A program made the translations under genes and the position numbers. A DNA stretch of 64,000 nt, taken from contig JBEKYR010000008.1 of the NCBI GenBank assembly GCA_049510745.1, forward strand, positions 210,232 through 274,231, given 5' to 3'. The notes under the pieces are model-generated. The model had not been told where the DNA came from and searched no databases. It saw only the letters and a program-made list of their open reading frames with translations. Positions 22,720 through 57,854 of this stretch are shown here, in pieces (the first letter of the stretch is position 1; each line of letters starts with the position of its first letter). This DNA is from Verrucomicrobiota bacterium (lineage in GTDB: Bacteria; Verrucomicrobiota; Verrucomicrobiia; Limisphaerales; Palsa-1400).

Positions 22720-22723
22720 GCCT

Positions 22724-43000: not shown

Positions 43001-45234
43001 CGGACAGCGACGGGAATTACCAGCTTACATACAATCCATTGGCCGGCTTCGCCGGCACGCTGACCATCTGGGCGGCAAATCCGCTGGTGGTGGACGTTTT
43101 GAATGAGGCGCAAGTCGTCATCTTCCGCATGTACGCGGTGCCTTCGGCGGCGGACGTGCAGATGTCCAAAAACGGCCAGTTGAGTTTTTCAATCCAGTTG
43201 TTGAACCCCGGCGATGTGCCGCTGACCGGTTTTACCAGTTCGGTTCAGGCCTGGCAACTGTCCGGCACCAACCAGATTCCAATTGGCACAGTCACGGGAA
43301 CCAACCAGATTCCGCCGGGTTTTGTGCTGGGTCCCGGCCAGACAGAAACGGTCAACCTGCAATTGTCCGCCGCCATCAACGCGCCGGATAACGCGCAGGC
43401 GCAATTCACGATCACCTCGGCCGAGGGCGCCACGGCCACCCTGACCGCCAGTTTGGATCTGTTCCCGGCCGTGCCGGTGCTCTCGGTGGTGAATCCGGCG
43501 GCGGGCTATTTGGAGGTGAGCCTGAACCGCGGCGACCAGCTTAGCGGCCAGATCACCATCGCCAACAGCGGGTTGATGGCGTTGCAGGGCATCACGCTTG
43601 CGCCGCCGACGAACAGTTGGATGGCGGTCAACCTGCCCGTGGCCAGCGACGGCCGGATTCACCTGCCGGATTTGGGGATCGGCCAGTCCAACACCTTTGC
43701 CGTCGTGTTCACGCCGCCGACCAATACGGTTCTGGGGTTTTATCAGGACGCGATCACGGTTCAGGGAACCAATGCGGCCAGTCCGTTCCCGGTGAATGTC
43801 TATGCCCAAGTCACCTCGTCGCAGACGGGCGGCATTCAGTTCGAAGTGGACGACATCCTCGGCGAGCAGGTGCCCAACGCCGCGATCCGCCTGCACAATA
43901 ACGCGCTGTTGTCCGACTGGGGACCATTCTACACCGATACCAACGGCTTGGTCACGGTCACCAATTTGCAGGAGGGCGATTGGAACTGGCAGGTCACGGC
44001 CGCCGGCTGCTCGGGCAATGTCGGCACGGTAACGGTCATTGCCGATCAAATCGTTTACCAGCCCACCCGTCTTTCCCGAAGCCTGGTCACGGTGAACTTC
44101 ACCGTGGTGCCGGTGCCTTTTACGGATTCATACCAAATCCAGGTGGAACAGACCTATGAAACCTACGTGCCGGTGGGGGTCCTGGTGCTCGACCCGCCGT
44201 ACCTGGGTTTCACCAATCTTCCCTCCGGCTTCCAGGCCACATTCACGACGAGCGCGGAAAACCAGGGCTTGGCGCAAATGACCGATGTGACGTTGACCGG
44301 TTCCGAAGCCAACGGCTTTTCCGTAACCCCTTTGATTACTTACATTCCAGTTCTCCTGCCGATGCAGTCGGTGGAAGTGCCTATGGTCGTGGCTCTGGAT
44401 TCTCCAGGGGTTGCCGGAGGCCAGAATGCACAGGCACGACAGTCCACCTCCGACTGCGTCAGTGCGCAAAACATTCAGGACTTCCTAACCGGAGTGATGG
44501 TCCTCGCGCAGGCCCTTCAAATGTGCCCCAAAGACAGCGCGCCGGAGACGAGCCTGGCCAATGAAATCCTCGAGGATGAAATTGAAGAAGCAACCATCGG
44601 GGAAAGTTTGGAAGGATCCGTCGCAGGAGCCACTGTGGCAGCCGAATTAGCCGGCGCGCTGATTGGGTGTGCCCATCCTGGCATCTCCAGTTTCTTCCTG
44701 GGGACCGGCGGCTACAGTGGCCCTTCCTACAACACACCGGTTGCTGCGCCAGGTTTTAACTTGCCCAATGGCTGTTTCTCCGCCTCCACCTCCGTCCTGA
44801 TGGGCGATGGAACGGAAAAACCGATCTCGGAGATTCGCATCGGCGACACCGTTCGCAGCGGTCCAAAGCCGGGAAACATCGCGGTTGTCTATGCCGTCTA
44901 TTCGCTGACCGCCACCAATTTCCAGGAAATCCGGTTTGTCAGCGCCGACGCGAAGAACGCGAGGAGTTTGACCGCCACCGACGAGCACCGGTTCTGGGTT
45001 GATGGCAAAGGCTGGGTGGCCGCCGGAGTTGTGGCCGCCGGTGACTGGCTGTTCGATTCGTCTGGCCGGCGCCTCAGCGTGGTTGCCAGCCAGTCCGTGA
45101 CCCGCAGCATGCCGGCTTATACCTTTAGTCTCGCCGATGACAACGCGTTCTACGCCAACGGCGTTTTGGTCCATGACCTGTGCGGCGCGCCGCCAGCCGG
45201 ATCGCGAGTCCGGACATCGGAGGTGGCCAAATGA
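28087..45234 (+). CDS. Giant (~5,700 aa) secreted multidomain surface protein with C-terminal Hint domain
   Basis: Signal peptide ending LAGA; carboxypeptidase-regulatory-like and putative-Ig repeats; GNLYGTT beta-propeller repeats (~35260-36330); three CARDB-like PDLA units (~36350-37490); FN3/Ig domains; Hint at 44773-45177. Confidence 0.9.
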   Translation: MRFVKQERFGLSRARLSLAVGTAQMLLLCHLAGAVTFSVTPAAVGNTYNGVITLQVGGLTNNETVVVQKFLDLNTNGVIDAGDWLVQQFNLTDGQPGMVIGGIVNSNVPGDTDTTPGQITAQLNFRNGDMVQNFVGQYAFKLSSPGGHFEPITNFFSVTNFPYAQKFTGNVVSNGTGTTVPNALVLLLGSGNKKALAGAVADNSGGYTIAAPPGTYMPVALKSGYVANFSTPPVLTLSSGQTNTTNLTLLSATASISGQLADANNSSIGLPGILLSARATNGLMGVSFTDGNGNFSVSVQTNLGQWEVAPNESGLIVHGYLELQNKGTSATAGQTNVTLALPRATALFYGSVKDNLGNPMPGLEIYADDNNNVYEGDGYTDANGNYAAVALGGLNNDPWRTQISSDTSPTNYFFSQPDFDWNDGTNISAGEAVLANFTAVLATNTISGSLKDGSGHPLGGIGVEASATINGVYYQLEAVDTDTNGKYSLNVANSTWTVAVLQYGSSDSLPANYFCLSQTVVISNNNATVNLTALFGTNTISGSLKDDSGNPIAGVWVWDNAWINGVTYYQGGKETDANGNYSLNVVNSTWTVGVNSCSDCGDGLPVKYLCPPTQTVVISNNNGTANFTALLATNDITGVVKDSNGNPIGGVGVWANATINGAGYFQYVDADTNGNYSLNVANGSWTVGVECNGGSDSLDNILGSGNYQCPNNQSVGITNNNGVANFAVPLCSGLTITTTSLPAGEVNVYYDQFLQASSCSSTLTWSLLAGSLPPGLTGDPFSGEIYGTATSAGAYDFIVQVIDGNGLRANQALSLTINGGELQVTTTSLSSGTTNVAYTSRQLTARGGQPPYRWSLASGMLPPGMSLSTNGVISGTPTVAGNSNFVVQVTDSVSATATKALSLVIYPFSTSVSFNVTPPAVSNFYTGIITLQVGGLVTGETVLVKKYRDNNGNGLIDAGDSEVQQFQLTDGQASVFYDGTTAVTNFNVAGDLTPADGAITAQLPLALSGSSQMTVAQYAFRLSSPTGRFAPITNLFNVTNSAFAQSFTGNVVCSGTNVPHALACLFIPPFSANITLIASSLADGDGGYRLSAPPGTYLLCAFKSGFVADAGNAPVLALGANATIPTNLSLLPATCSLSGRFVDAANTNAGLPCVHVKGGSANGLVTSGTADGNGNFALPATTDWWGVLGDSQSLDSQGYLGLQSAAIVNANAGSVAGVTIALARGTALVYGAVQDGQNHPLSGVRLSGSQNDGASPYVGDATSDQNGNYAMAVNDAGVWNAGISGNNPAFPNYLWSAGLGDTTFANGQAVQCNFTALVATNYITGSVLDSSNNPITNIQVYGSATIGNQDYNAASAFTDANGNYSLTVASGAWQITLDCDALGWLGYCCPNYPPVIVSGGNAVENFALVLNSEVQVTTTNLPPGYVGSPYDVFLQAAGCQPPFAWSVVSGSLPSGLQLASTGELSGTPNNADAFNFTAQVSDANNNTANQALSLIVNTNTPLEITTVSLLTATQAVFYTATLGASGGQKPYSWSLAPGSGPLPATLSLATNGVLSGTPATNGTFYFYVRATDAIKTTADQLLTLTVNGLTNNPYDSNVTFSVTPSAVSNSYMGAITLEIGGLANGETVVVQKYLDANSNGLVDAGDWLVQQFSLSDGLASMIDGVTNSNIPGDTDTTPGQITAKLNFRNGDFMQNIVGQYAFKLSSPTGRFAPITNLFSVTNFPYAQKFTGNVVSNGTSTTVSNALVLLFPPPRAGKSGPSGSPLAGAVADNSGSYSIQAPPGTYSLCAFKSNYLANFSTMPVLTLGSGATVTTNLALTNATSSISGNLVDANNSSIGLPAILLSAQAANGLMDVSFTDTNGNFTVGVASGQWGLRADDTSLIVHGYLGLQNRTYANAGQTGVALAVPQATALFYGSVKDTLGNPLTGIDVYASDNNDGLYETDGYTDANGNYWAAVLGGLGSDDPWQVDLSSNSRLANYLVSPPGFDSNGGTNMGAGQAALANFTALLATNYVSGSVKDNNGSPIAGVGVWAGTTINGLNYNAQTVDTDTNGNYSVMVGNGTWTIGINFGQCGDCLPGEYLCPPTQSVVISNNNGTANFTALLATNEITGSVTDSSGHPIGGVRLFANGTVGGVSYQSRQDTEGNGSCSLNVANGTWSVGLYCSGSDSDTLDNILGPGNYICPASQNVTITNNNGTASFIVQLCGVTITTTSLPAGQINVYYDQFLQGSSCSGTLSWSLLSGSPPPGLTWNPSSAEINGTPTTAGTYDFTVQVTDGLGHWTNQNFSLYIASSPSPLQVTTASLPNATQGVFYNQQLQASGGQPPYAWSLTPGSGSLPTGLSLATNGVISGAPALHGTFYFYVRVADAASATADRVLSLALQPAATITNGVTLSTWYQFTGGNDGGSPKAGLVQGNDGAFYGTAYSGGTMGDGTVFRIATNGVPIASVSFDYANGGGPEDGLVEGRDGSFYGTTSYGGANGWGALFNATTNGALTALHSFSFGDGGNNPCAGLVQGGDGNLYGTTPYWGTIYFTTNYNGTVFRISTNGAFQSLYSFTGGNDGANPTAQLAQGNDGSLYGTTHDGGSNGSGTVFKISTNGAFQSLYSFTGGNDGGHPLAGLALGSNGIFYGTTTGGGAGGCGTVFGITTNGAFNALYSFTGGNDGNSPYAGLAQGSDGNLYGTTLYGGAVGSGTVFGMTTNGVLATLYSFSGSGDGSQPLGSLLQGSDGCFYGTTSRGGAQDDGTVFRLSLTSAPSPDLAPLSVAAPASVITPQPNAAVQVAWSVTNQGAGQAPGGWCDRVWFSTNGVLDGNSAALGDFFNSQTLPPGGSYRQTNTVTLPLPAIAGGSYTLFVQADVYGQIYEFNKSNNISAGAHGLFTLAPPDLAVLAVNPATNNVVFYPASPQSPTVQLTWAVTNQGAGPAAGNWYDRVCVSTSVSIADGVSSQYFWQDWTSPPFAVGEEYQVTNTIWLPQQSGTYYLIVSVDDGNYIYEADKTNNVLASAPLTVNYQVRPPDLAVVSASAPATVASTQPYPGVQVTWSVTNQGTGVASGGWYDRVWFSTNGVLDGNSRDIGDFYQSQNLAAGGNYQQTNAVILPVTNSLSYTLFVQVDVYDQVYEPNKLNNLSAGVPEAFTLTPLWTIFATNNPPADGYISGTGSYLTGATNVLTAHPNFGYLFVNWTEGANVAGTNLSLTNVVFTNHVFAANYADATPTHVVTTATSPAGLAAVAGAGTYSNGQTAHFSAPLAITNPPSLYTFEQYTEGNNPVSSAAAFSKTFSTFDPASGQYVAVYSASPLLPIVVNVSLNLANPVPATTNFIVTVQFDRSMRTNPSPIIVLTNSAATLQPAVSGNGSWSATALSNDTYSTPPVTFISGMDGTNQIIVSGAQDLAGNVMALTNAGSAIVDATPPPVPVLAVTASNSSSVTVAWAAYAAPPDLSYFRVFFQPTNFTSVAGLPILTSLGSGARSFQFGGLALDTRYYAAVQAVDYAGNASGLSVLPVILPETVPPPVSVQAAPVGADSVLLSWNSYNTAALLGFAGFTLYEAPGNFTSVPGSLVGVPLGPSVQSYQVSGLDRAKTYYFAVVGFNLTNGFNPNVTTAVWSDPYAGNIGIDTTIGGAGQSQVPVYHSIVVVSNATLTLEPGTTLLFAPGASLTVQQGSLAANGTALAPIILDSANDTPGHIPAPGDWGGVILGSGAGSSSLNFVEVLYGGGLTVSGCSPAVSAFTANNNIPCGLALQNGAALTTSDALLTANGIGIQQSDTSALTIQNSVIQNNGTNAVASGSSPLNAASDWWGTAQAGTLAAQLQGNIVYTPFLTYEPVLTPAIGTSNGLTQVGSGLVNLQLACRTAEGMRLSEDYTFTGVFFTPFTNNTTFPLSAGGGLKRVYAQFRSVTGQTNAPLEVDVNYITAGPVIQSFSLAQGQTLNRPLTVTGSATAVLGMQDMEFYVDGVLAGTNAGGNLSQFFDIRALPNAIHEVKLLARDQSGNIATLQNTVIIALTPPPAPVITSPAAGLIVKTNLLSVSGSAEAGMNIQLTRNGQIVGATVADGTGLFTVSNATLVEGLNTLVAVAFDSTGTTPSAARNVIVETIPPAALVMNTPVYAPGTGLNVSWNFPPTGKLAVTFQLFWSQAPFGETNEATGHSIVLTGMADTLQGLSDGLYYFGVVGYDVTGAASPLSALVSTVYDATPPALTVSYSRAPPLGVGPVAISLTSSEALAGTPSLTLQPCGSVSPVLLSLTNVAVNTWQTAFTVTSSTPSGPVAVTASAQDLAGNVFNGVPNGPALAIDTVAPAASITTVPPPPVQTTNNVNVAVSLALTKPAGPGTMPTLSFTTPTGTNIVLTLSGGGSNWSGTLPLTPAAGAGFGQFSFSAQDAVGNVGSNLLAGGQLELYNTALPSAPAAPSGLSATSLAGGYVWLAWNAVSNAQIYRVYREPGTNLVPPAVLDLDHITSNGVADLPPSDGSYRYGVTASRLGSESGISNVVVAVSVRTPPLAPTNVTANLAASGVQISWQEPAGGTTPDHYNVYRNGTLIQTVSSVSPVVDYPPLGTNSYVVAAVDAVGNQNPSAPAVLFLPVAPVSNLAALSIAGQAPVLTWNTGGGSVGCNVYRNGIRQNAALITGTNYTDNLPLSDVVRYAVTAVNGSAQESPPRMVTVYPVRLSLLVNSLGRGADNPLLTGYFDQFQVGVSNLGSSNSLPLQQVQLLRTITGLEPLVVTLGAPTNVSAGTQLQELITVPESSVVAAQSVQVTVFQQTDSAGSTVVYENTFNLTDSRLPGTEIALSVNQLPLVGGVTPFQLQIFNRGYADMEVIVSRAFGAQPGDVFVSVQNSFGQEVSRTALSGLVSGATYLMDGTAYVTIPPGASHILTITNVLVPAALGGATNVTFLGVASEIYNQLETTNQQVSGPLSGSMVSPSLAQTPYYGTAQTDKADYSNNDPILISGQALDRTSGLPVPNVPLNIGFAARGFHWYQSVTTDSDGNYQLTYNPLAGFAGTLTIWAANPLVVDVLNEAQVVIFRMYAVPSAADVQMSKNGQLSFSIQLLNPGDVPLTGFTSSVQAWQLSGTNQIPIGTVTGTNQIPPGFVLGPGQTETVNLQLSAAINAPDNAQAQFTITSAEGATATLTASLDLFPAVPVLSVVNPAAGYLEVSLNRGDQLSGQITIANSGLMALQGITLAPPTNSWMAVNLPVASDGRIHLPDLGIGQSNTFAVVFTPPTNTVLGFYQDAITVQGTNAASPFPVNVYAQVTSSQTGGIQFEVDDILGEQVPNAAIRLHNNALLSDWGPFYTDTNGLVTVTNLQEGDWNWQVTAAGCSGNVGTVTVIADQIVYQPTRLSRSLVTVNFTVVPVPFTDSYQIQVEQTYETYVPVGVLVLDPPYLGFTNLPSGFQATFTTSAENQGLAQMTDVTLTGSEANGFSVTPLITYIPVLLPMQSVEVPMVVALDSPGVAGGQNAQARQSTSDCVSAQNIQDFLTGVMVLAQALQMCPKDSAPETSLANEILEDEIEEATIGESLEGSVAGATVAAELAGALIGCAHPGISSFFLGTGGYSGPSYNTPVAAPGFNLPNGCFSASTSVLMGDGTEKPISEIRIGDTVRSGPKPGNIAVVYAVYSLTATNFQEIRFVSADAKNARSLTATDEHRFWVDGKGWVAAGVVAAGDWLFDSSGRRLSVVASQSVTRSMPAYTFSLADDNAFYANGVLVHDLCGAPPAGSRVRTSEVAK
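44773..45177 (+). other. Hint (intein-like) domain within the giant protein
   Basis: Block A CFSASTSVLMGDG.KPISEIRIGD, block B LTATDEHRFWV, block F/G YTFSLADDNAFYANGVLVHD. Confidence 0.88.
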
Positions 45235-48200
45235 GATATTTGCCTGACTTCGGGTGTCGTTTCCGGGCGGGTGTTCTGCTCCTGCTCTTGTTGCCTTGGA
45301 CCGGCGCGGCCCAGGAGCAACAACAGGGACTCTGCGCCCAGGTCAAGATCATGATTTCGCAGCAAATGACCCTGGAACGGATCGGCTTTCAGGCCACCCT
45401 GCAAATCACGGACAATGACCCGAACGATCCGATCACTGGGTTTGCCGCCAATCTGACCTTTGAGAATCCCGCCCTCTCCACCAACGGAACGGTCAACGAT
45501 TCCTCCAGCCTGTTCTTCGTCCAGCCGCCGACCCTGCAAAACGTGGCCAGCGTCAACGGCAGCGGCGTCTTCTCGCCGGGGCAGACCGCGACGATCGTCT
45601 GGTTCATTATCCCCACGACCAATGCCGGCGGCATGAGTCCCAACGGCGTTGTCTATAATGTCGGGGCCAAGTTGAGCGGGCAGATTCGCGGGGTGGATAT
45701 CCCCGCCTCCAGCCTGACGGTCTATCCGGCGCCGATCACCGTCCAACCCGACGCCCAGCTTGCCATCACCTACTTCACGCCGCGCGATGTGACGGGGGAC
45801 AACCCGTTTACGCCGCAGGTGGAAAGTCCCATCCCGTTCACCTTCGGGGTGCTGGTGCAAAATGTCGGCTACGGGACGGCCAACAGCGTGATCATCAACT
45901 CGCAGCAGCCCAAGATCGTTGAAAACACGCAGAATCTGCCATTGATCGCCCAACTGCTCGGATCGCGGGTGAATGATTCGCCGCTGGCCAACGCCAATCT
46001 GACGGTCAACCTGGGCAATCTCTTGCCTGGCCAGGCCAGCAAGGGGGCCTGGGACATGATTTGCTCGATCTCGGGCACGTTCCTTTCCGTCAACGCCACC
46101 TACACCCACTCCACCGCGCTGGGCGGCGCGGAAACTTCGCTCATCAGGTCGGTCAACGCCTATCTTTTCTTGCACGAGGTGCTGGACGACCTGCCGGGCC
46201 GCGACAGCGTCCGCGATTTCCTGGCCGACACGAGCGGGACATTGGATGCTGTCAACAATCTGATCCCCGACTCGCTCTACGAGAGCGAGGGCGGCGTCTT
46301 TCCGGTCAACTTCATGACCAACGCCTCGGTGTCCGGCTCGGGCAACCCGGTGCAGGTGAACCTGAACGCGAATTTCGCCGGCTGGGGTTACATCCGCCTG
46401 AACGACCCCATGCAAGCGGCTTTGCCCATCGCCAGCGTGGTGCGCTCGGACGGCAAGGTTCTGAACACGAACAACTATTGGACGAGCATTCACTACGAGC
46501 CGGCAACCAATTTCAAGGATACCTACCTGAACTTGTTTGATTACACGGGCCTGGGTTCCTACACCTACACGGTGACGTACGCCAATTCCGTGGCCAGCAC
46601 CAACCCGCCCGTGACGAGCCTGCTGTTCGCCGGACCGTCCACGTTCACCAATGGCGCCTATTATGTCACGCCCGAAACCCAGATGTATTTCATCTCCCAG
46701 GACACAACTCCGGTCAGCATCTATTATAGTCTCACCAACGGCCCGTTCCAGCCCGCCTACCCCTTCAGCTTGAGCAGTCCGGGCCAGTATCAGGTGACGT
46801 ATTACGCCACGGACGCCAACGGCAACCAGGAAACCAATCACACGGCCACGCTGGTGGTGGCGGGGGCGGCTTCATTGGGCTTCGCCAGCGTCAACGTGCC
46901 GGCCCAGCCGCTCTTTGTTCCGGGGGACGCGCTGTCCGTCCGGCCGGGAATTGCTCCGATCACTTTCCAGGCGTTGGCCAATCCGACAACTGTCAATGCG
47001 CGGGTGGACATTTTCCAGGGGGTGGCCGGCTGGGCCATGGTGGCCGGCGTGCCTTCCTCGCCGACGGCCGGCGCCTCGGCGTCGTTGAGGATTGGGGGCG
47101 GCAACGTGGATTTCTACATTTATCAGGTGAATTCCGGCGCCTGGAGCGCGGAGCAACCGGTCAGTTCTCCGCTCACTTTGTCCGGTTTGGGGCCGGGAAG
47201 CAACACGGTGTCCGTCCTCGGCCGCTCGCAATACGGAACGTATTTGGACCCGAGCAATGCGGTGAGCGTGGGTTGGGTGGTTGATTCGGCGGCGCCGGCC
47301 ACGGTCATCACGGGCGCGCCGGCCACTCCAAGTCTTGACACCTCGGCCCAATTGACCGTCGGCGGCGCCAACGTCACCGGCTATCGCTGGACCATTAACA
47401 ACGGGTATTACCGCCCGGACACCAACGTGGCCAGTTCGATTGTCCTGACCAATCTTACCGGGACGCAACAGGTCGTGGCCGTGCTTGGCGACATCAACGG
47501 CATCGAGCAGCCGACCAATAATCCCACCACCGTGGCGTGGACCATCAATGCGCTCTACGGTTACGACCTCAGTTCGCTCACGGCGGTAAGGAGCGTGGCG
47601 TTCACGAACATCAGCGGACCGATTACCTTTGACTGGGATGGGAGCAGTGACGCCGGAGTGCCGCAGCCGCCGGGATGGTACACGGTGCGGGTGACGCTCA
47701 GTGACACGCTGGGTCACACCAACTTCACCACCGGCCTGGCGCAAATCAACGCGTTGTCCGGGACGAACATCACCCTGGCCGATTTCACCCGCGGTTCCCA
47801 GAGTCCTTATGCGCGCGGACGCCGGGTGGTGTGGCAGGACCAGAGCGACGGCAACTGGGAAATCTACGCCCGCGATCTAACCGCCAGCAACGGCGCCATT
47901 GTGCAAGTCACGCACACCAATTTGAGCCAGGAAAATCCCCGCACCGACGGCCGTTACGTCGTCTGGCAGGCCCAGCAGCCCAATGGGACTTGGAATGTCT
48001 ATTGGGACGATTTGGACGGCACCAACGGGCCGCAGGCGCTGACCAGCACGCCGACGATCAATGAAGTCAGTCCGGCGATGGATTGGCCGTGGGTGGTTTA
48101 TCAGGGGCGCTCGGCCCTCAACACCAACGCCCCCTGGCAGATCTTCGCCTGTGATTTGGTCACCACCCAAACCGTCCAGGTCTCCGTTTCCTCGCAGGAT

Positions 48201-49214: not shown

Positions 49215-49218
49215 ATCT

Positions 49219-50058
49219 ATGCATCGCAAACCTTCCATCTTGTTTCGGTGGCCGGCCTGGGGCGCGGCGGGCTGGGCCATGACGCTGGCTGCCGCCGGCG
49301 TGACCGTGTCCGATCTGCAAACGCAACTGGCCGGCGGCGGGAAGATCACGGTGGTTGATGTCCGCGACCCGGCGGTTTTTGCGCAGGCCCATATTCCCGG
49401 CGCGATCAACATTCCCGCCGAGGTGTGCCAGCGGAAGAATTTGCCGCCGCTGGGCCGGGTGGTCATTTACGGCGATGGCCTGGGCCGGGACGCCGCCAGC
49501 ATGGTGGATGAGGCGGCGGCGGCGCTGGGAAAAAAGCCGGGAATCACCGCGGAAATCCTCGAAGGCGGCTTTGCCGCCTGGGAAAGCGCGCATGGCCTGA
49601 CGACGCGCCGCGAGGGCAAGAGACCCGAAGCATTCAACTACATCACCTACGCCCAATTGAAGGCGGCCAAGGCGGGCGGCGTGATCCTGGTTGATTTGCG
49701 CAATCCCACGGCTGCCGCGCGGCAATCCCTGGCCGCCGGCTCCAATTCCCCCACCCAGCCGCTGACCGACCTGGGCCGGGAATTTCCCGGCCTGAGCCTG
49801 GCCAAATCCGTCCCGGAAAAAAGCGCCTCCGGCAAGTCCGGCGCCGCGCCTTTGCTGGTTTTGATTGACAGTGCCGATGGCGCGGCGGAGGCGGCGGCCC
49901 GGGCGCTCAAAGGGAGCGGCGTCAAACGTTATGCCATCCTGGCCGGCGGCGAGTTGATTCTGGCGCGCCACGGCCAGGCGGGTTCGCAGCGAAGCAGTGC
50001 GGGCATCGTTGGGTCAGGCCAAAACCCGGCCCCGGTCCAGGGCGCAACCAACTATTAA
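49219..50058 (+). CDS. Exported tandem rhodanese-like domain protein lacking catalytic Cys
   Basis: VVDVRDPAVFAQAHIPGAINIP...ILEGGFAAW; second domain LVDLR...ILAGG. Confidence 0.8.
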   Translation: MHRKPSILFRWPAWGAAGWAMTLAAAGVTVSDLQTQLAGGGKITVVDVRDPAVFAQAHIPGAINIPAEVCQRKNLPPLGRVVIYGDGLGRDAASMVDEAAAALGKKPGITAEILEGGFAAWESAHGLTTRREGKRPEAFNYITYAQLKAAKAGGVILVDLRNPTAAARQSLAAGSNSPTQPLTDLGREFPGLSLAKSVPEKSASGKSGAAPLLVLIDSADGAAEAAARALKGSGVKRYAILAGGELILARHGQAGSQRSSAGIVGSGQNPAPVQGATNY

Positions 50059-50063
50059 AGAAC

Positions 50064-53000
50064 ATGATTTCGTCAACCCCATCTTCCCTGCAGGCGCCCG
50101 GCCGGGCACGGTTCGGAGGGAATTGGGCGCTGACGTTGGCCCTCCTGATCCTCGGCGCGTATTCGGCCGCCGCGCAGATCGTCGTCACCAATGTCACGAC
50201 GGTCAATGTGACCCTCGGCGGTTTCTCCGTCGTCGGAGCCGTCTCGCCCGCGATCACGCCTTCGATGACGGCCTCCATTTCCGTTTTCGCTGATGCGGGG
50301 GGCGTGACCAACTTGGCGGGACAAGTGGGCATCGAATACTATCCGCTGCACACCGGCGATCCGACGCTGACCAATGCCTACGACCGCCTTGTGGGCGAGG
50401 CGGCCTTGCGCCAGCAGACCATGGGTTTGGGCCTCTTTTATGCGCGGGTCTCGGACTGCTCCCCCGGCACGGCTTACTTCTATCTTGTTGCAGTCTCCAA
50501 CACCAACGGCCAAACCACCCTCTTCCCCGCCTCAGGCCCGCTGCCGTCGGTGACAACGGCCCGGGAAACCTCTTTCGTGTTGGATTCCGAGCAACTGATT
50601 GTCACGCTCAACGACTCCAGCCCCGCCGGGGCCATCCTCACGCTTTCCAATACCAATACTCCCAGTGTTTTGGCGGCGGTGGTGGGCGATGGCGCGGGCG
50701 CCAACCAGGCGTTCTTCAGCCTGAATGATTTTATCGCCGCGGCGGGCGGGACGAATTATCTGCCGGTGGGAAACCAGCAGTTCACGGCCCATGTTCTGGG
50801 GCTGTCCCCGCAAGGTCTCTCGCAGACTTACACCGTGGCGTTTTCGACCAATTTTTCGGTCGGATCAGCGACGCCGGAGGTTCTTGGCGGCGGGTCGGCG
50901 ACGACCTTGGCGGCCTCGGCCATTACCGCCGGCAGCGCGACGTTGAACGCCTCGGTCAATCCGAACGGGGCGCCAACCACGGTCTATTTCGAATGGGGAG
51001 CGACCACCAATTACGGCAGTGTGACGAGCAGCGATGTTCTGTCGGCGAACTTGAACACCGCTCAACCCGTGGCGCTGGGCATAGGCGGATTGCTGCCGGG
51101 CGCCACCATCCACTTCCAGGTGGTGGCGGTGAACAGCGCCGGGACCAGTTACGGGGGCGATTTGACGCTGGTCACGCCCGCCTTGCCGCCGACGGACGTT
51201 ACCTTGCCCGCCTCAGGCATCACCCCGACCAATGCAACGCTCAATTCTTCTGTCACACCAAATGGCGCTCCCACCGCCGTTTTCTTCCGATGGGGCGCGA
51301 CGACCAATTACGGCAATTTCACCGCGACGAACACCATTTCTTCCAAGTTGAGCAGCGCCCGCGCGGTGGCGATGCCCATTGGCGGGCTGACACCCGGCGC
51401 GACCAATCACTTTCAGATCGTGGCGGTCAACAATAGCGGGACGGCCTACGGCGCGGACCTCACGGTTGTCACGCTGCCGTTGCCGCCGCTCGCGGTGACC
51501 TGGGCCGCTTCAGGCATCACCCCCACCAATGCGACGCTCAATGCTTCGGTCACGCCCAACGGCGCGCCCACCGCGGTTTTCTTTCAATGGGGTGCGACGA
51601 TAAATTACGGCAACTTCACGGCGGCCAATACGTTGTCGGCCAATTTGAGCACGGCGCAGGCGGTGTCGGCGCTCATCAGCAACTTATTGCCCGGCACGAC
51701 CAACCATTTCCAAGCGGCGGCCTCGAACAGCGCCGGAACCTCTTACGGCGCGGATTTGACGGTGGTCACGCCGTCTCAGCCGCCGATCGCCGTGACCCTG
51801 GCCGCCTCAGGCATTACTCCGACCAATGCAACGCTCAATGCTTCGGTCACACCCAATGGCGCGCCTACCGCGGTTTTCTTCCAATGGGGCGCGACGACCA
51901 ATTACGGCAACTTCACGGCGGCCAATACGTTGTCGGCCAGTTTTTACACGGCGCAGGCGGTGGCGCTGGTGATCAGCAACTTATTGCCCGGCACGACCAA
52001 CCATTTCCAAGCGGCGGCCTCGAACAGCGCCGGAACTTCTTACGGCGCGGATTTGACGGTGGTCACGCCGTCTCAGCCGCCAATCGCCGTGACCCTGGCC
52101 GCTTCAGGCGTCACCCTGACCAACGCAACGCTCAATGCTTCGGTGACACCCAATGGCGCGCCTGCCACGGTTTTCTTCCGATGGGGCGCGACAACCAATT
52201 ACGGCAACTTCACCGCGACGAACATCATTTCGTCCAAGTTGAGCAGCGCCCGCGCGGTGGCGATGACCATTGGCGGACTGGCGCCCGGCACAACCAACCA
52301 TTTCCAAGTGGTGGCCTCGAACAGCGCCGGAACCTCCTACGGTGCGGATTTGACGTTGGTCACGACGCTCCAACCGCCGCTGGCCGTGACCCTGGCGGCA
52401 ACGGGTGTCACCTCGAACAGCGTTGTGCTTAACGGCAGCGTCAATCCGAATGGCGCCGTTACAACGGTCTATTTTCAATGGGGCGGCAGCGCCAGCTATG
52501 GCAACTTCACGGCAACCAACACAATTCCCTCCGGCTACAGCGTTGTTTTCGTCAGCAACGGGATTTCAGGACTGGCGCCGTTGACGCTCTACCATTACCA
52601 GGTCATCGCCGCCAACAGCGCCGGAACAAATTACGGCGCCGATCAGACCGTCCTGACCCCGTTGCCGCCCGTGGCCGTCACCTCGCCGGGCGCCATCACG
52701 AACGCCGCGACAACGTTCAAAGCCGTGGTGACCCCCAACGGCGCGCCCACAACCAGTTGGTTTGAATGGGGCACAACGATCGCTTACGGCAACGCCACCC
52801 AGCCAGCCAGCGTCGGCGCTTCTCTCAGCGCGAATTCGTTCAGCAGTCTGCAAACCGGATTCCCGCCCGGCATCGTCTATCACTACCGGGCGGTCGCGAC
52901 CAATTACCTTGGCCGCGCCAACGGCGCCGATGCCCTTCTGGAGTCCGCGGTCATTTCGTTGAATGGCGCAAATCCGTTGACCAACCAATGCCATTCGCCC

Positions 53001-54446
53001 TTCGTTGATCCGGGCGTTCACTTGGTTTCGGCCGCGCCGCTGGCGATTGCGGCCGCCTCGGGTGGCGCTTTCAGCCTGGCCCTGAAGGCCGATGGCACGG
53101 TGGCTGGATGGGGCCAGAACACCTACCGTCAGGCCACGCCGCCACTGAATGTGAGTAACGTCCTTGCCGTCTCCGCCGGACAGGATTTTGGCCTGGCGCT
53201 GGTCACAGGAGGGACAGTCCGCGGATGGGGTTGGAATGGCCAGGGCCAGATTACCATCCCATCGAGCTTGACCAACGCCGTCGGCATCGCCGCCGGGCTG
53301 GATTTTGGTCTGGCCGTCAAAACCGATGGAACAGTGGCGGCCTGGGGCGACAGCAGCGATGGCGCGTTGAGCGTCCCTGCCAGCCTGACCAATGCGGTCT
53401 CGGCCGCCGCCGGCGGCTTTGGCGTTGCCCTGACACGCAACGGCACGGTAACGGGATGGGGCGATGATTCGTATGGGGAAACGATCATTCCGGCGAATCT
53501 GACCAACGTTGTCTCGGTTGCGGCCGGCATTTACCACGGCTTGGCGCTCAACGGTGACGGAACCGTGGTGGCTTGGGGCCAGGACTATTACGGTCAAACG
53601 GACGTTCCGTCCGGTCTGAGCAACGTCATCGCCATCGCCGCCGGCAGCTATCACAATCTGGCCCTGCGAGCCAATGGCACCGTGGCCGCGTGGGGTGATG
53701 ACAGCTACGGCGAGGCGGACGTTCCGGCCAATTTGACCAATGTGGTGGCCGTCGCCGCCAGCGATTTTCACAGTCTGGCGCTCCAATCCGGCGGCGCCGT
53801 GATCGCGTGGGGCGATAACAGCCTGGGAGAGTTGAACGTCCCGGCCACTCTCACCAATTTGAATGTCAGCGTCGCAGTCCTGAACCCTGTCGATACCAAT
53901 ACGCCCGACGCTTACGCGCTCAGCTATGCGGTCATCGATTTTCTTGGGGGCGTCGGCACGACCAACCGCAGCGTGGAGGTGGTGGACACCCTTCCGCCCG
54001 TTCTGACCCTTCTGGGCGCCAACCCGTTCACCAACCTGCTGAACACGCCGTGGGTCGATCCCGGAGCGAGTGCCATGGACGCTTGCGCGGGCAACTTGAC
54101 CGCCGGCATCGTGACCAATGGCGCGGTCAACACATCGGTGGCCGGAAGTTATGTCCTGACCTACTCGGTCGCCGATCCGAGCGGCAATACGGCCGTCACC
54201 AATCGCCTTGTGATCGTGAGCACTTCAGCGCCGATGTTTCAGCAGGCGACCGTGGCAAGTCACGCCATCACCTTCACTTGGAGTTCCGTGGCGGGCGCGA
54301 CCTACCAGGTGCAATACAAGAACAACCTTAATCAGCCGGCATGGAGCAATCTCGCGGCTCCCGTCGTCGCCGGCGGCGCCACGGTCTCCGCCAGCGACGG
54401 GATTACCAACACCGACCGCTTTTACCGCATCGTTCAATTGCCGTAG
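50064..54446 (+). CDS. Secreted protein with FN3-like tandem repeats, RCC1/BLIP-II-type repeats, Ig-like domain and C-terminal FYR domain
   Basis: About seven ATLNASVTPNG..FQWG.TTNYG units; HxLAL..dGTVvAWG repeats; DTLPPVLTLLGANP; ends FYRIVQLP. Confidence 0.88.
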   Translation: MISSTPSSLQAPGRARFGGNWALTLALLILGAYSAAAQIVVTNVTTVNVTLGGFSVVGAVSPAITPSMTASISVFADAGGVTNLAGQVGIEYYPLHTGDPTLTNAYDRLVGEAALRQQTMGLGLFYARVSDCSPGTAYFYLVAVSNTNGQTTLFPASGPLPSVTTARETSFVLDSEQLIVTLNDSSPAGAILTLSNTNTPSVLAAVVGDGAGANQAFFSLNDFIAAAGGTNYLPVGNQQFTAHVLGLSPQGLSQTYTVAFSTNFSVGSATPEVLGGGSATTLAASAITAGSATLNASVNPNGAPTTVYFEWGATTNYGSVTSSDVLSANLNTAQPVALGIGGLLPGATIHFQVVAVNSAGTSYGGDLTLVTPALPPTDVTLPASGITPTNATLNSSVTPNGAPTAVFFRWGATTNYGNFTATNTISSKLSSARAVAMPIGGLTPGATNHFQIVAVNNSGTAYGADLTVVTLPLPPLAVTWAASGITPTNATLNASVTPNGAPTAVFFQWGATINYGNFTAANTLSANLSTAQAVSALISNLLPGTTNHFQAAASNSAGTSYGADLTVVTPSQPPIAVTLAASGITPTNATLNASVTPNGAPTAVFFQWGATTNYGNFTAANTLSASFYTAQAVALVISNLLPGTTNHFQAAASNSAGTSYGADLTVVTPSQPPIAVTLAASGVTLTNATLNASVTPNGAPATVFFRWGATTNYGNFTATNIISSKLSSARAVAMTIGGLAPGTTNHFQVVASNSAGTSYGADLTLVTTLQPPLAVTLAATGVTSNSVVLNGSVNPNGAVTTVYFQWGGSASYGNFTATNTIPSGYSVVFVSNGISGLAPLTLYHYQVIAANSAGTNYGADQTVLTPLPPVAVTSPGAITNAATTFKAVVTPNGAPTTSWFEWGTTIAYGNATQPASVGASLSANSFSSLQTGFPPGIVYHYRAVATNYLGRANGADALLESAVISLNGANPLTNQCHSPFVDPGVHLVSAAPLAIAAASGGAFSLALKADGTVAGWGQNTYRQATPPLNVSNVLAVSAGQDFGLALVTGGTVRGWGWNGQGQITIPSSLTNAVGIAAGLDFGLAVKTDGTVAAWGDSSDGALSVPASLTNAVSAAAGGFGVALTRNGTVTGWGDDSYGETIIPANLTNVVSVAAGIYHGLALNGDGTVVAWGQDYYGQTDVPSGLSNVIAIAAGSYHNLALRANGTVAAWGDDSYGEADVPANLTNVVAVAASDFHSLALQSGGAVIAWGDNSLGELNVPATLTNLNVSVAVLNPVDTNTPDAYALSYAVIDFLGGVGTTNRSVEVVDTLPPVLTLLGANPFTNLLNTPWVDPGASAMDACAGNLTAGIVTNGAVNTSVAGSYVLTYSVADPSGNTAVTNRLVIVSTSAPMFQQATVASHAITFTWSSVAGATYQVQYKNNLNQPAWSNLAAPVVAGGATVSASDGITNTDRFYRIVQLP
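50899..52945 (+). repeat. Intragenic tandem repeat, 297-bp period in the core
   Basis: GC(C/T)TCAGGC... unit anchors near 51210, 51507, 51804 and 52101; central copies almost identical. Confidence 0.85.
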
Positions 54447-54507
54447 CGGGCGCTAAAATCCGAATTCCATGAGCGATGCGAATCTGCTCTTACAACAAGA
54501 TGAAACA

Positions 54508-56217
54508 ATGAAAACATTCAAAGCACGCACGAGGGTCACGGAAGTTTGCGCGTTCGCCGTCGCGCTTTCCCTGGCCTCCTCAGCTCCGAATTCCCGCGCC
54601 AATGTTTGCGCGACGGACATCAAACTGAACGGCGCGATGGCCAGCATCAAGACGCTCCCCGGCAGGAATGTTGTCAACATTAGCTACATCCTGAACGAGC
54701 CGGCTACCGCGGGCGTGACGATCAACGTTCTTTCAGGCAGCAATGTGATCCGCGCCATCAATCTTCCCGCCGGGAATCCGGGCGCGCTCCGGGGCACGAA
54801 TTTGGTCGTCTGGGATGGCAATGACAGCCATACAAACGCCGTGCCGGCCGGAACTTATTCCATTGCTGTGACGCCGGCGGCGACAGGTTACACCAACTGG
54901 ACGCAAATCAGCGTGGACACCAACGCCGGCAACTATGTGTATCACCCTTACGGCATCGCTGTGGATAACAATACCAACAGCCCGTACTATGGCCGCGTGC
55001 TGGTGGGGAATTCACAGACGGGGCCCAATTCCGCCACCGTCCCTGGCGACAAGGACGGCATCCTCAAATGCAACGCCGACGGCAGTTTTGCGGACGAGGG
55101 CGGTTTTGGAAACGGGGGCTATAACGTGTCGGACACCGGCGAAACCGCCGCGCCCGGCGAAATGGTGGACGATGGCTACAACGACCTGCCGCAAAAAATG
55201 AGGATCGGAGAGGATGACCGGCTTTACATGAACGATTGGACCGGTTATGGCCGGGTGGTCGCGTTTGACATGGCGGTGACGACCAATCAGACGGTGCTCA
55301 GTTCCGCCAATTACGCCAGCAACCCCTTTTTCGACAACAGCATGGCCACGGGCTGGAATTCCCTCGACGTGACGGGCGCCGGCACGACCAACGGCCTGCT
55401 CTGGTACGGCGCTTATGACTCCCCCAATTCCGCAGGCATCTGGATCTGGCATCTGACCAACGGCGTGGCCAACCCCGCTGACACCACCGGCACGCAGGCC
55501 ATCGGCGCGGGCGGCTCCTTGACGCAATCGGCCAACGGCGGGATCATGGTGGACACCAATTATGACATTTTCGCGGGCCAGTACGGGACCGCGGTCGGAA
55601 ACCAGAGATGCATGGTCTTCACGAATTGGAACAAAGGCAGCGCCTGGGGCGGGTCGGCGGAGCTGACGAGAACAGCCTGGGCCGCCGGCGGCGCCGATGG
55701 AACGTTTCTCAACAATTACGATCTCACGATCAATTCGCGCCAGCACCCGGTGTATGCGGCTTGCGCCATGGTGGGACCCAATGCCTTCGGCATCCGCATT
55801 CTGAATGCGACCAATGGAAGCACCATTCAAACCAATCTGGACTGGCCCAACGCTTATAGCATTACCGCCTGGGACAACGTGGGCAATCTCTACGCCGGCT
55901 CTCCTTCGTTGCATGTGTGGCGGGTCTTTTCACCGCCGGCCGGCGCCAACCAATCCACCACGATTGCCGTGGAGACAATCCAGGTGATTGCTTCGCCCTC
56001 ATTTACCGGTCTCTCGGATCTGAACGGCACTGTCACCCTCAACTTCACCGCCGCCTCCTCCGATTCCCCCGCGGCCTTTACGTTGCAGAGAGCGCCGTCG
56101 GTCGCGGGTCCGTACGCGGATGTGCCGGGCGCCCATGCGACGCAGAACAGCCCGGGCCTTTTCAGCTTTTCGACGACGACCAACGGCGCGACGCAATTCT
56201 ACCGCATTCGGCGTTAG
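54508..56217 (+). CDS. Secreted FlgD-Ig-like domain protein with beta-rich core and C-terminal FYR domain
   Basis: Signal peptide; ISYILNEPA...VWDGNDSHTNAVPAGTYSIAV; ends QFYRIRR. Confidence 0.8.
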   Translation: MKTFKARTRVTEVCAFAVALSLASSAPNSRANVCATDIKLNGAMASIKTLPGRNVVNISYILNEPATAGVTINVLSGSNVIRAINLPAGNPGALRGTNLVVWDGNDSHTNAVPAGTYSIAVTPAATGYTNWTQISVDTNAGNYVYHPYGIAVDNNTNSPYYGRVLVGNSQTGPNSATVPGDKDGILKCNADGSFADEGGFGNGGYNVSDTGETAAPGEMVDDGYNDLPQKMRIGEDDRLYMNDWTGYGRVVAFDMAVTTNQTVLSSANYASNPFFDNSMATGWNSLDVTGAGTTNGLLWYGAYDSPNSAGIWIWHLTNGVANPADTTGTQAIGAGGSLTQSANGGIMVDTNYDIFAGQYGTAVGNQRCMVFTNWNKGSAWGGSAELTRTAWAAGGADGTFLNNYDLTINSRQHPVYAACAMVGPNAFGIRILNATNGSTIQTNLDWPNAYSITAWDNVGNLYAGSPSLHVWRVFSPPAGANQSTTIAVETIQVIASPSFTGLSDLNGTVTLNFTAASSDSPAAFTLQRAPSVAGPYADVPGAHATQNSPGLFSFSTTTNGATQFYRIRR

Positions 56218-57854
56218 CGGGCCGTTGCCTGCACGCGGTAGAAGGACTCGCCAAAGGCGGGGGCGGGATCGGTCAGGATGATGAGGTTTCCATTGGTCGA
56301 AGCCGCGGAGTTGGTGACCGGTGACCAGAGAGGATTGGCCAGTTGTGGCGTTCGCCAAAGGGAGTAATCCAGGCCCGCCCGAAAATTGGCCGAGATAATG
56401 ATTTGATTGTTGGTCCACTGAATGTTGGAAAAGTTCGGCAGCGTGGCCGCCGCCGCCGCCGCCGCCGCCGCAAAATTGATCCGGCCCCAGCCGTAATACT
56501 CATCCCAGCCTGCCGAACCAAAGTCAACCGATGTGTCTTGCAAGATGGCAATGAGATCATCCGGGCCGAGCGTGGGATTCAGCCCCAGTATCCAGGCCGC
56601 CACGCCGCAGAATAACGGGGCGGCATAGCTGCAGCCGGTGCCGTAGGCATACCCTCCCGAAGTTGTGGTGGAATAAATCTGGTAACCGGGCGCGGCAAAA
56701 TCAATATACGGGCCGTACATGGTTCCCTGGAAATTGTCGGCGGCATCAGTCATGGAGATGCAATAAATGTCCGGCTGGTTGGGGCCGTCGAGCGGTCCGC
56801 TCCCATCGACGGCGGACATGACGAGGATGCCGGCGGCATTGGTCTTGAGATAATAGCCGGCGGTTTCCAGCGCGGCATTCGTGGCTCCGCTCCAGCTTAT
56901 GTTGACGACGCGCACGCCGTGATCCGCCGCCCAAATGGTGGCATTGTACATCTCGCTGATGGCGCCGTTGATGTTGATGGGGAGAATCCGGCAGTTGGCC
57001 GCGCCGGCGACTCCCAGGCCGTTGTTAATCACCGCCGCCGCCATGCCGGCGCACATCGTCGAATGCGCCAGGCCGGCGCTGGAATCGACCGGCACATTGG
57101 CGACGACGTCCCACCCGCTGACGGTGTTCCCGGCCAAATCCGGGTGATCCATCTGGAACGGCGTGTCCACTATCGCGATGCGGACCGTGTGCTGACCCAG
57201 ACCGTAATTCCATGCCAGATAACTGCCGATGACCTTGTGATGCCACTGCGCCCCGATCAGCTGGTCGTCAGGGGTAAACTGCCGCTGCTCAAAGGTGTCC
57301 AGTTCCGCAAAAGCGACGTCCGGCCGGGCCGCCAAAGCCCGGACGGCCTCCCATTCACGCATCGGTTCGACGCGCAAGGCGCTGACGTGCGCCTGGGCGC
57401 GGAACTTGAGCAGAATCGTTTCCGGATTGAAGAGGGTGACTTTGCCCGGACTTTCCAGGAGCCTGCCAAACCGTCGTTGCTGATAATTAAGATGGGCCAG
57501 AGTGTTGGCTTCGGGCAGTGGAACCGTGTGATTCGTCAATTGAGGGGAGGCCAATTCCGAAAAAAGCACAAGGCCGGGAATGCGCCGGCCCGGAAGTTCC
57601 CGGGATAATTGCCGCCGGGGAGCGGAGTCTGGCCAATCCGGAGGCAATCTTAAGACTTCGTCCGACACTGAAGCATAAGGCAGTTGTGTCTGGCGGAACT
57701 CTGCCGGAGGCTCAGTCAAGCTGTCCTTCCGCAAGATGGAAGGGGAAGCCGGGACGGGCTGAACGCTCTGCTTCGCCTCGCGGATGCCGGTTTCGGCGCT
57801 CCCACCGCCGGGCGAACACAGTGCCACGAAGAGGACCGCAACGCAGATTCTCAT
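56214..57854 (-). CDS. Secreted S8 (subtilisin-like) serine peptidase with C-terminal FYR domain
   Basis: IAIVDT..MDHPDL, AHSTMCAG, DFAAPG, TGCSYAAP and YYGWGRIN; ends SFYRVQATAR. Confidence 0.88.
   Translation of the reverse strand: MRICVAVLFVALCSPGGGSAETGIREAKQSVQPVPASPSILRKDSLTEPPAEFRQTQLPYASVSDEVLRLPPDWPDSAPRRQLSRELPGRRIPGLVLFSELASPQLTNHTVPLPEANTLAHLNYQQRRFGRLLESPGKVTLFNPETILLKFRAQAHVSALRVEPMREWEAVRALAARPDVAFAELDTFEQRQFTPDDQLIGAQWHHKVIGSYLAWNYGLGQHTVRIAIVDTPFQMDHPDLAGNTVSGWDVVANVPVDSSAGLAHSTMCAGMAAAVINNGLGVAGAANCRILPININGAISEMYNATIWAADHGVRVVNISWSGATNAALETAGYYLKTNAAGILVMSAVDGSGPLDGPNQPDIYCISMTDAADNFQGTMYGPYIDFAAPGYQIYSTTTSGGYAYGTGCSYAAPLFCGVAAWILGLNPTLGPDDLIAILQDTSVDFGSAGWDEYYGWGRINFAAAAAAAAATLPNFSNIQWTNNQIIISANFRAGLDYSLWRTPQLANPLWSPVTNSAASTNGNLIILTDPAPAFGESFYRVQATAR

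What the first reader, a model, noticed from the sequence alone, without database searches (positions are those of the whole stretch)
45231..56217. Five-gene 28-kb assembly operon; the partner's N-terminal Cys is a candidate Hint acceptor
Seen: the giant gene overlaps its partner by ATGA, followed by 4-nt and 5-nt gaps to the rhodanese-like and FN3/RCC1 genes; all products look exported. The partner's predicted mature N-terminus is QEQQQGLCAQVKI (Cys at 45333). From recall (unverified), 'CA.VKI.I.Q..TL.R..F' domains follow 'V..DxY.I..E.T(F/Y)ET.VP' domains within single polypeptides in other giant proteins, and the latter motif lies just upstream of the Hint here (VPFTDSYQIQVEQTYETYVP). Inference: a split giant protein re-joined after export by Hint-mediated trans-ligation or a disulfide.
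Basis: inference. Interest (0 to 1): 0.7.

Follow-up and report, generated by a model that had tools for sequence, protein, structure and literature searches.

The report
Split giant protein with self-cutting tail
A very large secreted bacterial protein is encoded in two pieces that most likely snap together to finish one shared fold, and the first piece ends in a conserved self-cutting domain that may staple it to the second piece, though not through the cysteine first proposed.

Summary
The layout is real, and the recalled fusion is confirmed. The giant's 'A' domain and the partner's 'B' domain are joined in one chain in 151 proteins, none with a Hint between them. In a model of a natural fusion, A strands and B form one composite Ig domain, so docking needs no Hint.

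The partner Cys is residue 8, not the N-terminus. It is present in 148 of 154 fused pairs, so it is an ancestral disulfide Cys and an unlikely acceptor.

The Hint is unusual. In 83 non-redundant copies, Cys1, Thr and His are kept, the terminal Asn is never present (mostly Asp), and a Cys two residues further on is invariant. Partners of this clade have a fixed x-x-Q-x-x-G-Φ-C arm. Other split forms carry RHS toxins or nothing after A, often beside an intact-triad transglutaminase-like gene, which 0 of 42 Hint loci show.

Best reading: strand complementation plus disulfide, with Hedgehog-like one-sided autocleavage at Gly5580|Cys5581. Ligation to the partner's amine (0.2) or cis-splicing (0.2) remain open. 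The conserved core is four genes, not five.

The parts
28087..45234 (+). Giant exported protein (ORF opens at GTG 28033; ATG 28087 precedes the signal peptide). Three repeated CarboxypepD_reg/He_PIG blocks, GloVer repeats, 3 CARDB, FN3/Big domains, then a conserved core ending in A, linker, Hint and tail
   Evidence: core homologs in 51 loci, N-terminal repeat unit in none of the fetched stretches, which seldom reach that far upstream
44071..44172 (+). A-domain long beta-hairpin (aa 5347-5380), the donor strands that complete the partner's first Ig domain
   Evidence: block pLDDT 43-58 in the giant's own C-terminus against 95-96 in a natural fusion; single Ig chains align to model residues 9..581
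44173..44415 (+). A-domain Ig/MSP-like sandwich (aa 5381-5461)
44416..44772 (+). Payload slot: three conserved Cys (5475, 5498, 5546) around hypervariable, fairly hydrophobic helical inserts, then a Gly-rich linker ending F-x-x-x-x-G|
   Evidence: 25% identity to relatives, against 51% for A, 45% for Hint and 62% for B; no Pfam match
44773..45177 (+). Hint domain C5581-D5715: Cys1, T-x-x-H (T5649, H5652), ending His-Asp instead of His-Asn
45178..45231 (+). Short tail L-C5717-G-...EVAK. Cys5717 is invariant (83 of 83). The EV codons are the partner's GGAGGT ribosome-binding site
45231..49214 (+). Partner (1327 aa): signal peptide, B domain, Ig/FlgD-like domains, beta-propeller repeats, conserved C-terminal domain
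45312..45335 (+). Predicted mature N-terminal arm QEQQQGL plus Cys35; the arm motif x-x-Q-x-x-G-Φ-C is specific to the Hint clade
45312..46220 (+). B domain: two Ig-like sandwiches, the first completed by A strands; no Pfam family, no solved relative by sequence
   Evidence: (2461 clusters at 50% identity)
49219..50058 (+). Exported tandem rhodanese-like protein; no invariant Cys in the family alignment; conserved accessory of split systems
   Evidence: (38 of 42 Hint loci; the other 4 end too early)
50064..54446 (+). Gene 4: conserved N-terminal FN3-like domain (aa 39-280), variable middle (FN3, RCC1), lineage-specific C-terminal domain (FYR-type here, dockerin-bearing in L038); candidate surface anchor
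   Evidence: (33 of 42 Hint loci)
54469..56217 (+). Gene 5: FlgD-Ig protein with an FYR-type C-terminus; adjacent but not part of the conserved unit

Best explanation
The giant and its partner are the two halves of an ancestral single-chain surface protein, each now with its own signal peptide.
1) After export, the giant's A hairpin inserts into the partner's first Ig sandwich (strand complementation). Shown in a model of a natural fusion; inferred for this pair.
2) Partner Cys35 makes a disulfide with a giant-side Cys, most likely Cys5717 or Cys5498. Inferred.
3) The Hint does Hedgehog-like, one-sided chemistry: an N-to-S shift at Gly5580|Cys5581, gated or relayed by the invariant Cys5717, while C-terminal cleavage is weakened. 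The thioester is resolved by water or by a nucleophile other than the partner, which frees the Hint and tail from the giant's backbone and leaves a processed C-terminus next to the variable helical payload. Catalytic residues are shown conserved; the reaction is inferred.
4) The rhodanese-like protein and gene 4 are accessory and anchoring subunits. Inferred.
The Hint then fills the processing role that a transglutaminase-like Cys enzyme may fill in other split members.
For: - Fusions: 154 A..B pairs, 0 with a Hint between (the same HMM did detect a distant His-Asn Hint in L127).
- Composite Ig domain. Weak covariation in antiparallel register: G5359-P56, G5363-P52, G5374-P39, G5370-P41.
- Hint-free direct splits L054, L058, L059.
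- B Cys is lost in the Cys-poor fusions P0160, P0171, P0189, L108, L118, L178, L180, L182, L184, L185.
- Hint statistics over 83 copies (<90% identity, median 38%): Cys1 79 of 79 complete, Thr 80, His 83, terminal Asn 0, Cys+2 83, tail 9-42 aa.
- Hint similarity tracks B about as well as A does (Mantel r 0.50 against 0.54, n=32), so it is a resident domain.
- Hedgehog's downstream Cys400 appears to bond Cys258 (PMC4695875, passages).
- Animal fusions carry R-x-K/R-R sites in 4 of 5 linkers against 3 of 149 others, so cutting between A and B is compatible with the fold.
- System-type transglutaminase-like gene: 0 of 42 Hint loci against 11 others; 0 of 5 against 5 of 5 genomes.
Against: - No activity or interface was measured.
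- The pLDDT contrast compares two different proteins and two different alignments.
- The covariation is thin (effective 156 sequences) and many top pairs look like noise.
- Which Cys pairs with Cys35 is unresolved. P0014, P0023 and P0176 favour the Cys after the Gly-rich linker, but the minimal fusions lose several Cys at once and keep only C3.
- Pure hydrolysis gives no obvious reason to keep the Hint in every clade member.
- Residue -1 is Pro or Val in 10 of 83, which is recalled to slow N-terminal cleavage.
- Terminal Asp, Glu and Gln can cyclize in some inteins (PMC4031507, passages).
- The Hint clade is one lineage, so its contrast with the transglutaminase is a single event. 3 of the 5 control genomes were chosen knowing they had the gene.
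Confidence: 0.42

Rival explanations
1. Trans-ligation to the partner's alpha-amine. A:B docking and a Cys35-Cys5717 disulfide hold the 7-residue arm at the Hint active site. Its free N-terminus attacks the Gly5580 thioester, rebuilding one chain like the natural short fusions.
For: - Arm motif: Gly at -2 in 42 of 42 and Gln at -5 in 41 of 42 Hint-linked partners; a small residue at -8 (Ala 33, Gly 6) fixes the arm length. Outside the clade the arm is shorter and variable.
- The B tree has a long stem (0.7, support 100) for this clade.
- A clade-specific aromatic at -7 (54%) and Gly at -3 and -1 (60% each) precede Cys1.
- Type A BILs ligate by attack of a free amine (PMC4031507, passages). The closest solved Hint, BIL2, conjugates to other proteins (PMC8616854, passages).
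- No type II glutaminyl cyclase was found in this 94%-complete genome.
Against: - Residue 1 is Gln in 36 of 42 and can cyclize spontaneously (PMC5837995, passages). Five M28-family genes were not tested for cyclase activity.
- Six loci (L032-L034, L036, L037, L042) have the arm with no A or Hint detected upstream; L036 has only about 300 bases upstream.
- L161 has a shorter arm.
- Gly-Φ-Cys is also the fused consensus.
- Docking alone suffices in L054 and L058.
Confidence: 0.2
2. Cis-splicing by a slow, Asp-ending BIL. Asp5715 cyclizes and the Leu-Cys-Gly tail takes the acyl group. The giant then ends ...G-L-C-G-tail, restoring the ancestral Cys after the Gly-rich linker for a disulfide with the partner.
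For: - 79 of 83 copies end in Asp, Glu or Gln, all reported as usable for cyclization (PMC4031507).
- Hint-free splits end in a similar Gly-rich-Cys-short tail (L054 ...VRVCR, L058 ...SGGCGP).
- Fusions L167, L170, L171, L176, L181 have a Cys followed by a short linker to the B Cys.
- His-Asn-x-Cys also occurs in toxin-bearing PT-HINTs (L127, L133).
Against: - Asn, the efficient residue, is absent in 83 of 83.
- The penultimate His is replaced in 16 of 83 and the terminal residue is His in 4.
- Cys sits at +2, not +1.
Confidence: 0.2
3. The Hint is a disulfide-locked structural domain. Cys1 bonds Cys5717 or partner Cys35 in the oxidizing envelope, and nothing is cut.
For: - Both Cys are invariant.
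- Pro at -1 occurs in a sub-clade (L038, L040, L041, L043, L046).
- The distance from C3 to Cys1 (median 35) resembles C3 to C4 in fusions (median 40).
Against: Block B Thr (80 of 83) and His (83 of 83) are kept at a median 38% identity. These residues assist the N-terminal reaction (PMC4031507).
Confidence: 0.14
4. One reading: partner Cys35 is the acyl acceptor of the Hint thioester.
For: Cys35 is invariant in the 86-row B alignment and probably lies near the A/B junction.
Against: It is residue 8. It is present in 148 of 154 Hint-free fused pairs and in Hint-free split partners. The product would be a labile thioester.
Confidence: 0.04

Closest known systems
Type A bacterial intein-like / PT-HINT domains of polymorphic toxins (MafB, UmbC, RHS)
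   Same: PT-HINT match above cut-off; nearest solved sequences include 8W20 and 2LWY. Relatives of this very system carry RHS, PT-HINT and a toxin-like C-terminus in the same slot (L127, L065).
   Different: No terminal Asn, no toxin domain (tail 9-42 aa) and no immunity gene. The next gene is the missing half of an upstream domain.
Hedgehog autoprocessing domain
   Same: Secreted precursor, C-terminal Hint, intact Cys1 and block B, no terminal Asn, a second conserved Cys near the Hint end (PMC4695875, passages).
   Different: No ~70-residue sterol-recognition region. The second Cys lies two residues beyond the terminal position. The acceptor is unknown.
BIL2 of the Tetrahymena BUBL1 locus
   Same: Best sequence and fold match among solved Hints; precedent for Hint-driven conjugation to another protein (PMC8616854, passages).
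   Different: Part of a polyubiquitin locus, Lys acceptor, Asn-ending (solved as the N143A mutant).
Donor-strand-complemented Ig assemblies (chaperone-usher pilins; split MG6 of complement C3 / alpha-2-macroglobulin, recalled)
   Same: One Ig sandwich built from two segments with a variable insert between them.
   Different: Only generic Ig-level similarity (best Z 10.6, most about 9; TM-score about 0.1); no homology shown.
LapA/LapG adhesin release
   Same: Giant exported protein with a protease acting on it; LapG papers matched the term 'transglutaminase-like' (search listing and abstract starts only).
   Different: The enzyme here is PF01841 and is absent from this locus. Its substrate is unknown.

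Membership tests
Type A BIL / PT-HINT | Hint fold with Cys1 and block B T-x-x-H | tested here: met
Type A BIL / PT-HINT | C-terminal His-Asn | tested here: not met
   His-Asp here; Asn in 0 of 83
Polymorphic toxin system | Variable C-terminal toxin domain after the Hint | tested here: not met
   tail 9-42 aa in all 83; met only in relatives such as L127
Polymorphic toxin system | Immunity gene directly downstream | tested here: not met
   partner gene overlaps by 4 nt here and in 8 of 8 genome loci
Polymorphic toxin system | Hypervariable segment on a conserved chassis | tested here: met
   insert 25% against 45-62% for flanks; it lies before the Hint and toxicity is untested
Class 1 intein | Cys/Ser/Thr at +1 after a cyclizing residue | tested here: not met
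   +1 is Leu in 43, variable otherwise; Cys is at +2
Hedgehog Hog domain | Sterol-recognition region after the Hint | tested here: not met
   short variable tail
Hedgehog Hog domain | N-terminal thioester transferred to an outside nucleophile | not testable with these tools
   needs biochemistry
Active rhodanese (sulfurtransferase) | Catalytic Cys in the active-site loop | tested here: not met
   loops read IYGDG and LIDSA; no invariant Cys in 26 aligned homologs; loop position placed from recall
alpha-2-macroglobulin / complement family | MG-domain ring and CGEQ thioester domain | tested here: inconclusive
   only a sub-threshold MG4 hit and generic Ig matches; only the A/B region was modelled

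The most novel reading that the evidence does not exclude
A bacterial secretion system that makes a >700-kDa surface protein from two genes and staples the halves after export. An Asn-less Hint at the end of one chain activates Gly5580, and the conserved 7-residue arm of a separately exported partner, positioned by strand complementation and a disulfide, forms the peptide bond. In sister lineages a transglutaminase-like enzyme replaces this chemistry, and the same chassis carries RHS toxins.
Probability: 0.2. Interest if true: 0.87.

Novelty: new variant of a known kind. Interest (0 to 1): 0.66.

Why it matters
The A/B module is a large family without a Pfam model or solved relative (2461 clusters at 50% identity; 32 of 61 nearby genomes; animal members). 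It behaves as a chassis with an exchangeable slot: helical bundle, RHS toxin, or Hint. I found no description of it in my ten literature searches, which used Hint, toxin and giant-protein terms and no name for the module itself.

The Hint variant is a natural one-sided autoprocessor in exported bacterial proteins. If it ligates in trans, it is a natural extracellular protein-stapling reaction and a possible ligation tool for oxidizing conditions. If it only cuts, it is still a bacterial parallel to Hedgehog processing with an unknown acceptor. Two soluble fragments of about 400 and 300 residues are enough to decide between these.

Tried and rejected
A natural fusion (L113) was folded instead, and the output gave no atomic distances, so disulfide partners could not be read.
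- No RNA holder was listed. This is no evidence on expression.
- Earlier findings: five look-ups returned nothing.
- Internal Cys-Gln thioester in B: the conserved Gln residues are mostly kept when the Cys is lost; rejected.
- A shared aromatic register placing Hint Cys1 on the ancestral C4: not seen in 93 fusions; not supported for the family as a whole.
- The rhodanese-like protein as thiol donor: no invariant Cys.
- Lys39 (C-A-x-V-K) as acceptor: not conserved within the Hint clade.
- Solved-structure search with the B profile: 0 matches. Atlas: unnamed clusters for B and only leads below 0.9 for gene 4.
- Promoter/terminator scan of 54000-56800: at chance level.
- Whether orphan partners (L033, L042) have a Hint giant elsewhere could not be searched.
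- Pfam scan of relatives' helical linkers was not completed; only this window's linker was scanned, with no match.
- The tree is the quick version, left out 12 near-duplicate loci, and carried one wrong label (L059 marked RHS; it is a direct split without RHS).
- Supplements of the papers were not opened; a description of this family could sit in such tables.

Full report
OBSERVATION. The ORFs, the ATGA overlap, the 4- and 5-nt gaps and the Cys codon at 45333 are as described. The giant (5733 aa) ends in an A domain (aa 5347-5461), a 119-aa linker with three Cys, a Hint domain (Cys5581-Asp5715; PT-HINT above cut-off) and an 18-aa tail. Partner Cys35 is the eighth residue after the predicted signal cut; signal peptides were read by eye. 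The closest named loci are Verrucomicrobiota. The genome holds one copy of the A, Hint, B and partner sequences.

FUSED FORMS. The B domain matched 2461 clusters at 50% identity. Among the first 186 B-bearing proteins, 151 had B alone at the N-terminus. After a search aimed at fusions, 304 fetched proteins carried B; 151 had A upstream in the same chain (154 pairs, linker 67-870 aa), and none had a Hint between A and B. The Hint HMM was built from this clade but did detect a distant His-Asn Hint. B Cys is present in 148 of the 154 pairs. Two fusions are animal proteins (Saccoglossus, Halocaridina), and 4 of their 5 linkers hold R-x-K/R-R, against 3 of 149 other linkers. B was found in 23 of 401 genomes of the phylum and 32 of 61 near relatives; both same-genus genomes gave only a fused form.

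STRUCTURE. The giant's C-terminus alone folded a confident Hint and Ig domain, but the A hairpin scored 43-58. In the natural fusion L113 the hairpin scored 95-96. Single Ig chains of about 110 residues aligned to model residues 9 to 581, spanning an A strand and B. The gene split therefore falls inside one composite Ig domain. These two models differ in protein and alignment, so the contrast is suggestive only. A covariation run (212 rows, effective 156) gave four inter-domain pairs in antiparallel register among many noisy ones. No solved relative exists by sequence, and fold matches are generic.

SPLIT FORMS. Of 88 loci fetched by B, 42 show a Hint directly upstream (36 with A in the same ORF), 9 show A without a Hint, and 37 show neither, being truncated or orphan. 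Of the 9, three end in a Cys-bearing tail just before B (L054, L058, L059), three run on into RHS repeats (L070, L071, L083), L065 has RHS and PT-HINT in the next ORF, and L084/L086 end as L065 does, with RHS not verified. L127 has A, RHS, a His-Asn Hint, a toxin-like C-terminus, a small gene and then B; L126 has A, an RHS-like stretch and B in one chain. The region after A is therefore an exchangeable slot. In the Hint clade it holds hypervariable helices: 25% identity to this window against 51% (A), 45% (Hint) and 62% (B) over 36 loci. 17 of 37 reach a 19-residue hydropathy of 1.6, against 3 of the A-domain controls.

THE HINT. Over 83 copies below 90% identity (from 90; median identity 38%), Cys1 is present in 79 of 79 complete copies, Thr in 80 and His in 83. 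The terminal residue is Asp 72, Glu 6, His 4, Gln 1 and Asn 0; Cys at +2 is present in 83; the tail is 9-42 aa; residue -1 is Gly 45, Ala 15, Pro 5, Val 5. Part of this set was found by similarity to this Hint, but the Hint ends in the loci found through B show the same pattern. Hint similarity tracks B about as well as A does, so it is not a roaming element. The B domains of Hint loci form one clade (support 100, stem 0.7, quick tree), which also holds a few partners with no adjacent giant. All clade-level contrasts below are thus one evolutionary event. A conserved N-terminal site with a relaxed C-terminal site resembles Hedgehog, where a downstream Cys appears to bond Cys1 (PMC4695875, passages). 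But Asp, Glu and Gln can cyclize in some inteins, and type A BILs ligate by amine attack (PMC4031507, passages), so cis-splicing stays open.

THE PARTNER'S N-TERMINUS. In 42 Hint-linked partners, Gly at -2 is invariant, Gln at -5 is present in 41, and a small residue at -8 marks the signal cut, giving a 7-residue arm. Outside the clade the arm is shorter and variable. L161 is an exception with a shorter arm. Against it, residue 1 is Gln in 36 of 42 and may cyclize (PMC5837995, passages), although no type II cyclase was found here. BIL2, the closest solved Hint, conjugates to other proteins (PMC8616854, passages). The Cys itself is ancestral. It is lost in Cys-poor fusions, and three variants favour pairing with the Cys after the Gly-rich linker. 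The module's Cys count is odd in 129 of 154 pairs, so one Cys pairs elsewhere and the map is unresolved.

ACCESSORY GENES. The rhodanese-like gene follows the partner in 38 of 42 Hint loci and gene 4's N-domain in 33 of 42; seven of the nine misses end too early, and L007 and L008 lack it. The rhodanese lacks a conserved Cys. Gene 4's C-terminus varies by lineage; an FYR-type end occurs in 98 ORFs of this genome, which suggests an anchor (inference). Gene 5 occurs in none of the 102 loci searched. A transglutaminase-like gene with an intact Cys-His-Asp triad (PF01841) lies near B in 11 non-Hint loci and in 0 of 42 Hint loci. With at least 2.5 kb downstream of the partner the counts are 5 of 17 and 0 of 31. 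By genome it gave strong matches in 5 of 5 non-Hint genomes (3 chosen knowing this) and only weak ones (E at or above 8e-7) in 3 of 5 Hint genomes. L054 has neither Hint nor this gene in 20 kb, so neither is strictly required. PMC3482391 (passages) reads a similar exclusion of HINT and PVC metallopeptidase as functional equivalence.

VERDICT. Shown: the layout, the fusions, the payload slot, the motif conservation and the gene associations. Modelled: the composite Ig domain. Inferred: the disulfide, all Hint chemistry, and the roles of the accessory genes. Odds: one-sided autocleavage without partner ligation 0.42, ligation to the partner's amine 0.2, cis-splicing 0.2, locked Hint 0.14, Cys35 as acceptor 0.04. 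Ten literature searches showed no description of this module; the library lacks most subscription papers and I opened no supplements. Also seen: passages of PMC7664689, 10.1101/2023.12.09.570830, PMC4524018, 10.1101/2025.11.11.687626, PMC2362128 (which mentions a secreted bacterial group with a C-terminal Hint-like domain; I did not compare it with this one), PMC7765530 and PMC5874633, and the abstract of PMC8416519. Recalled, from no call: the effect of Pro at -1, native-ligation geometry, furin specificity and the C3 MG6 analogy.

Noticed in passing
window 19143-26066 (+): An F-type ATPase operon running beta ... alpha, gamma (Pfam), the gene order recalled for N-ATPases.
   Followed up: partly
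window 26079-27800 (-): A GH130 fragment, an unannotated 230-aa ORF with a cyclase-like look, and a glycosyltransferase-like remnant (by eye) directly upstream of the giant; suggests a disrupted locus at the operon's edge.
   Followed up: partly
window 56214-57866 (-): Subtilase with the same FYR-type C-terminal domain as genes 4 and 5, converging on gene 5 with a 4-nt overlap; L006 has a similar C-terminus downstream of its operon.
   Followed up: partly
genome G000; window 54230-54446 and 56000-56217: 98 ORFs end in an F-[YF]-R-x motif domain; candidate sorting signal with no NCBIfam or Pfam match in genes 4 and 5.
   Followed up: partly
L136, L137, L140: Proteins with several tandem Hint domains (...VHNKG-CF...) followed by a membrane-like segment.
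   Followed up: no
L126 (G200:C21): A, an RHS-like stretch and B in one open frame of 9429 codons, next to a second system ending in a lipase-like domain (L125).
   Followed up: partly
P0014, P0023: Animal proteins with two or three A/B modules and furin-like sites in the linker.
   Followed up: partly
L032-L034, L036, L037, L042: Hint-clade partners with the full arm but no A or Hint detected upstream and no rhodanese gene detected; in several, housekeeping genes lie upstream.
   Followed up: partly
L006:3-6140; L012: The giant (L006) and the partner (L006, L012) are broken by frameshifts or stops; decay or assembly error.
   Followed up: no
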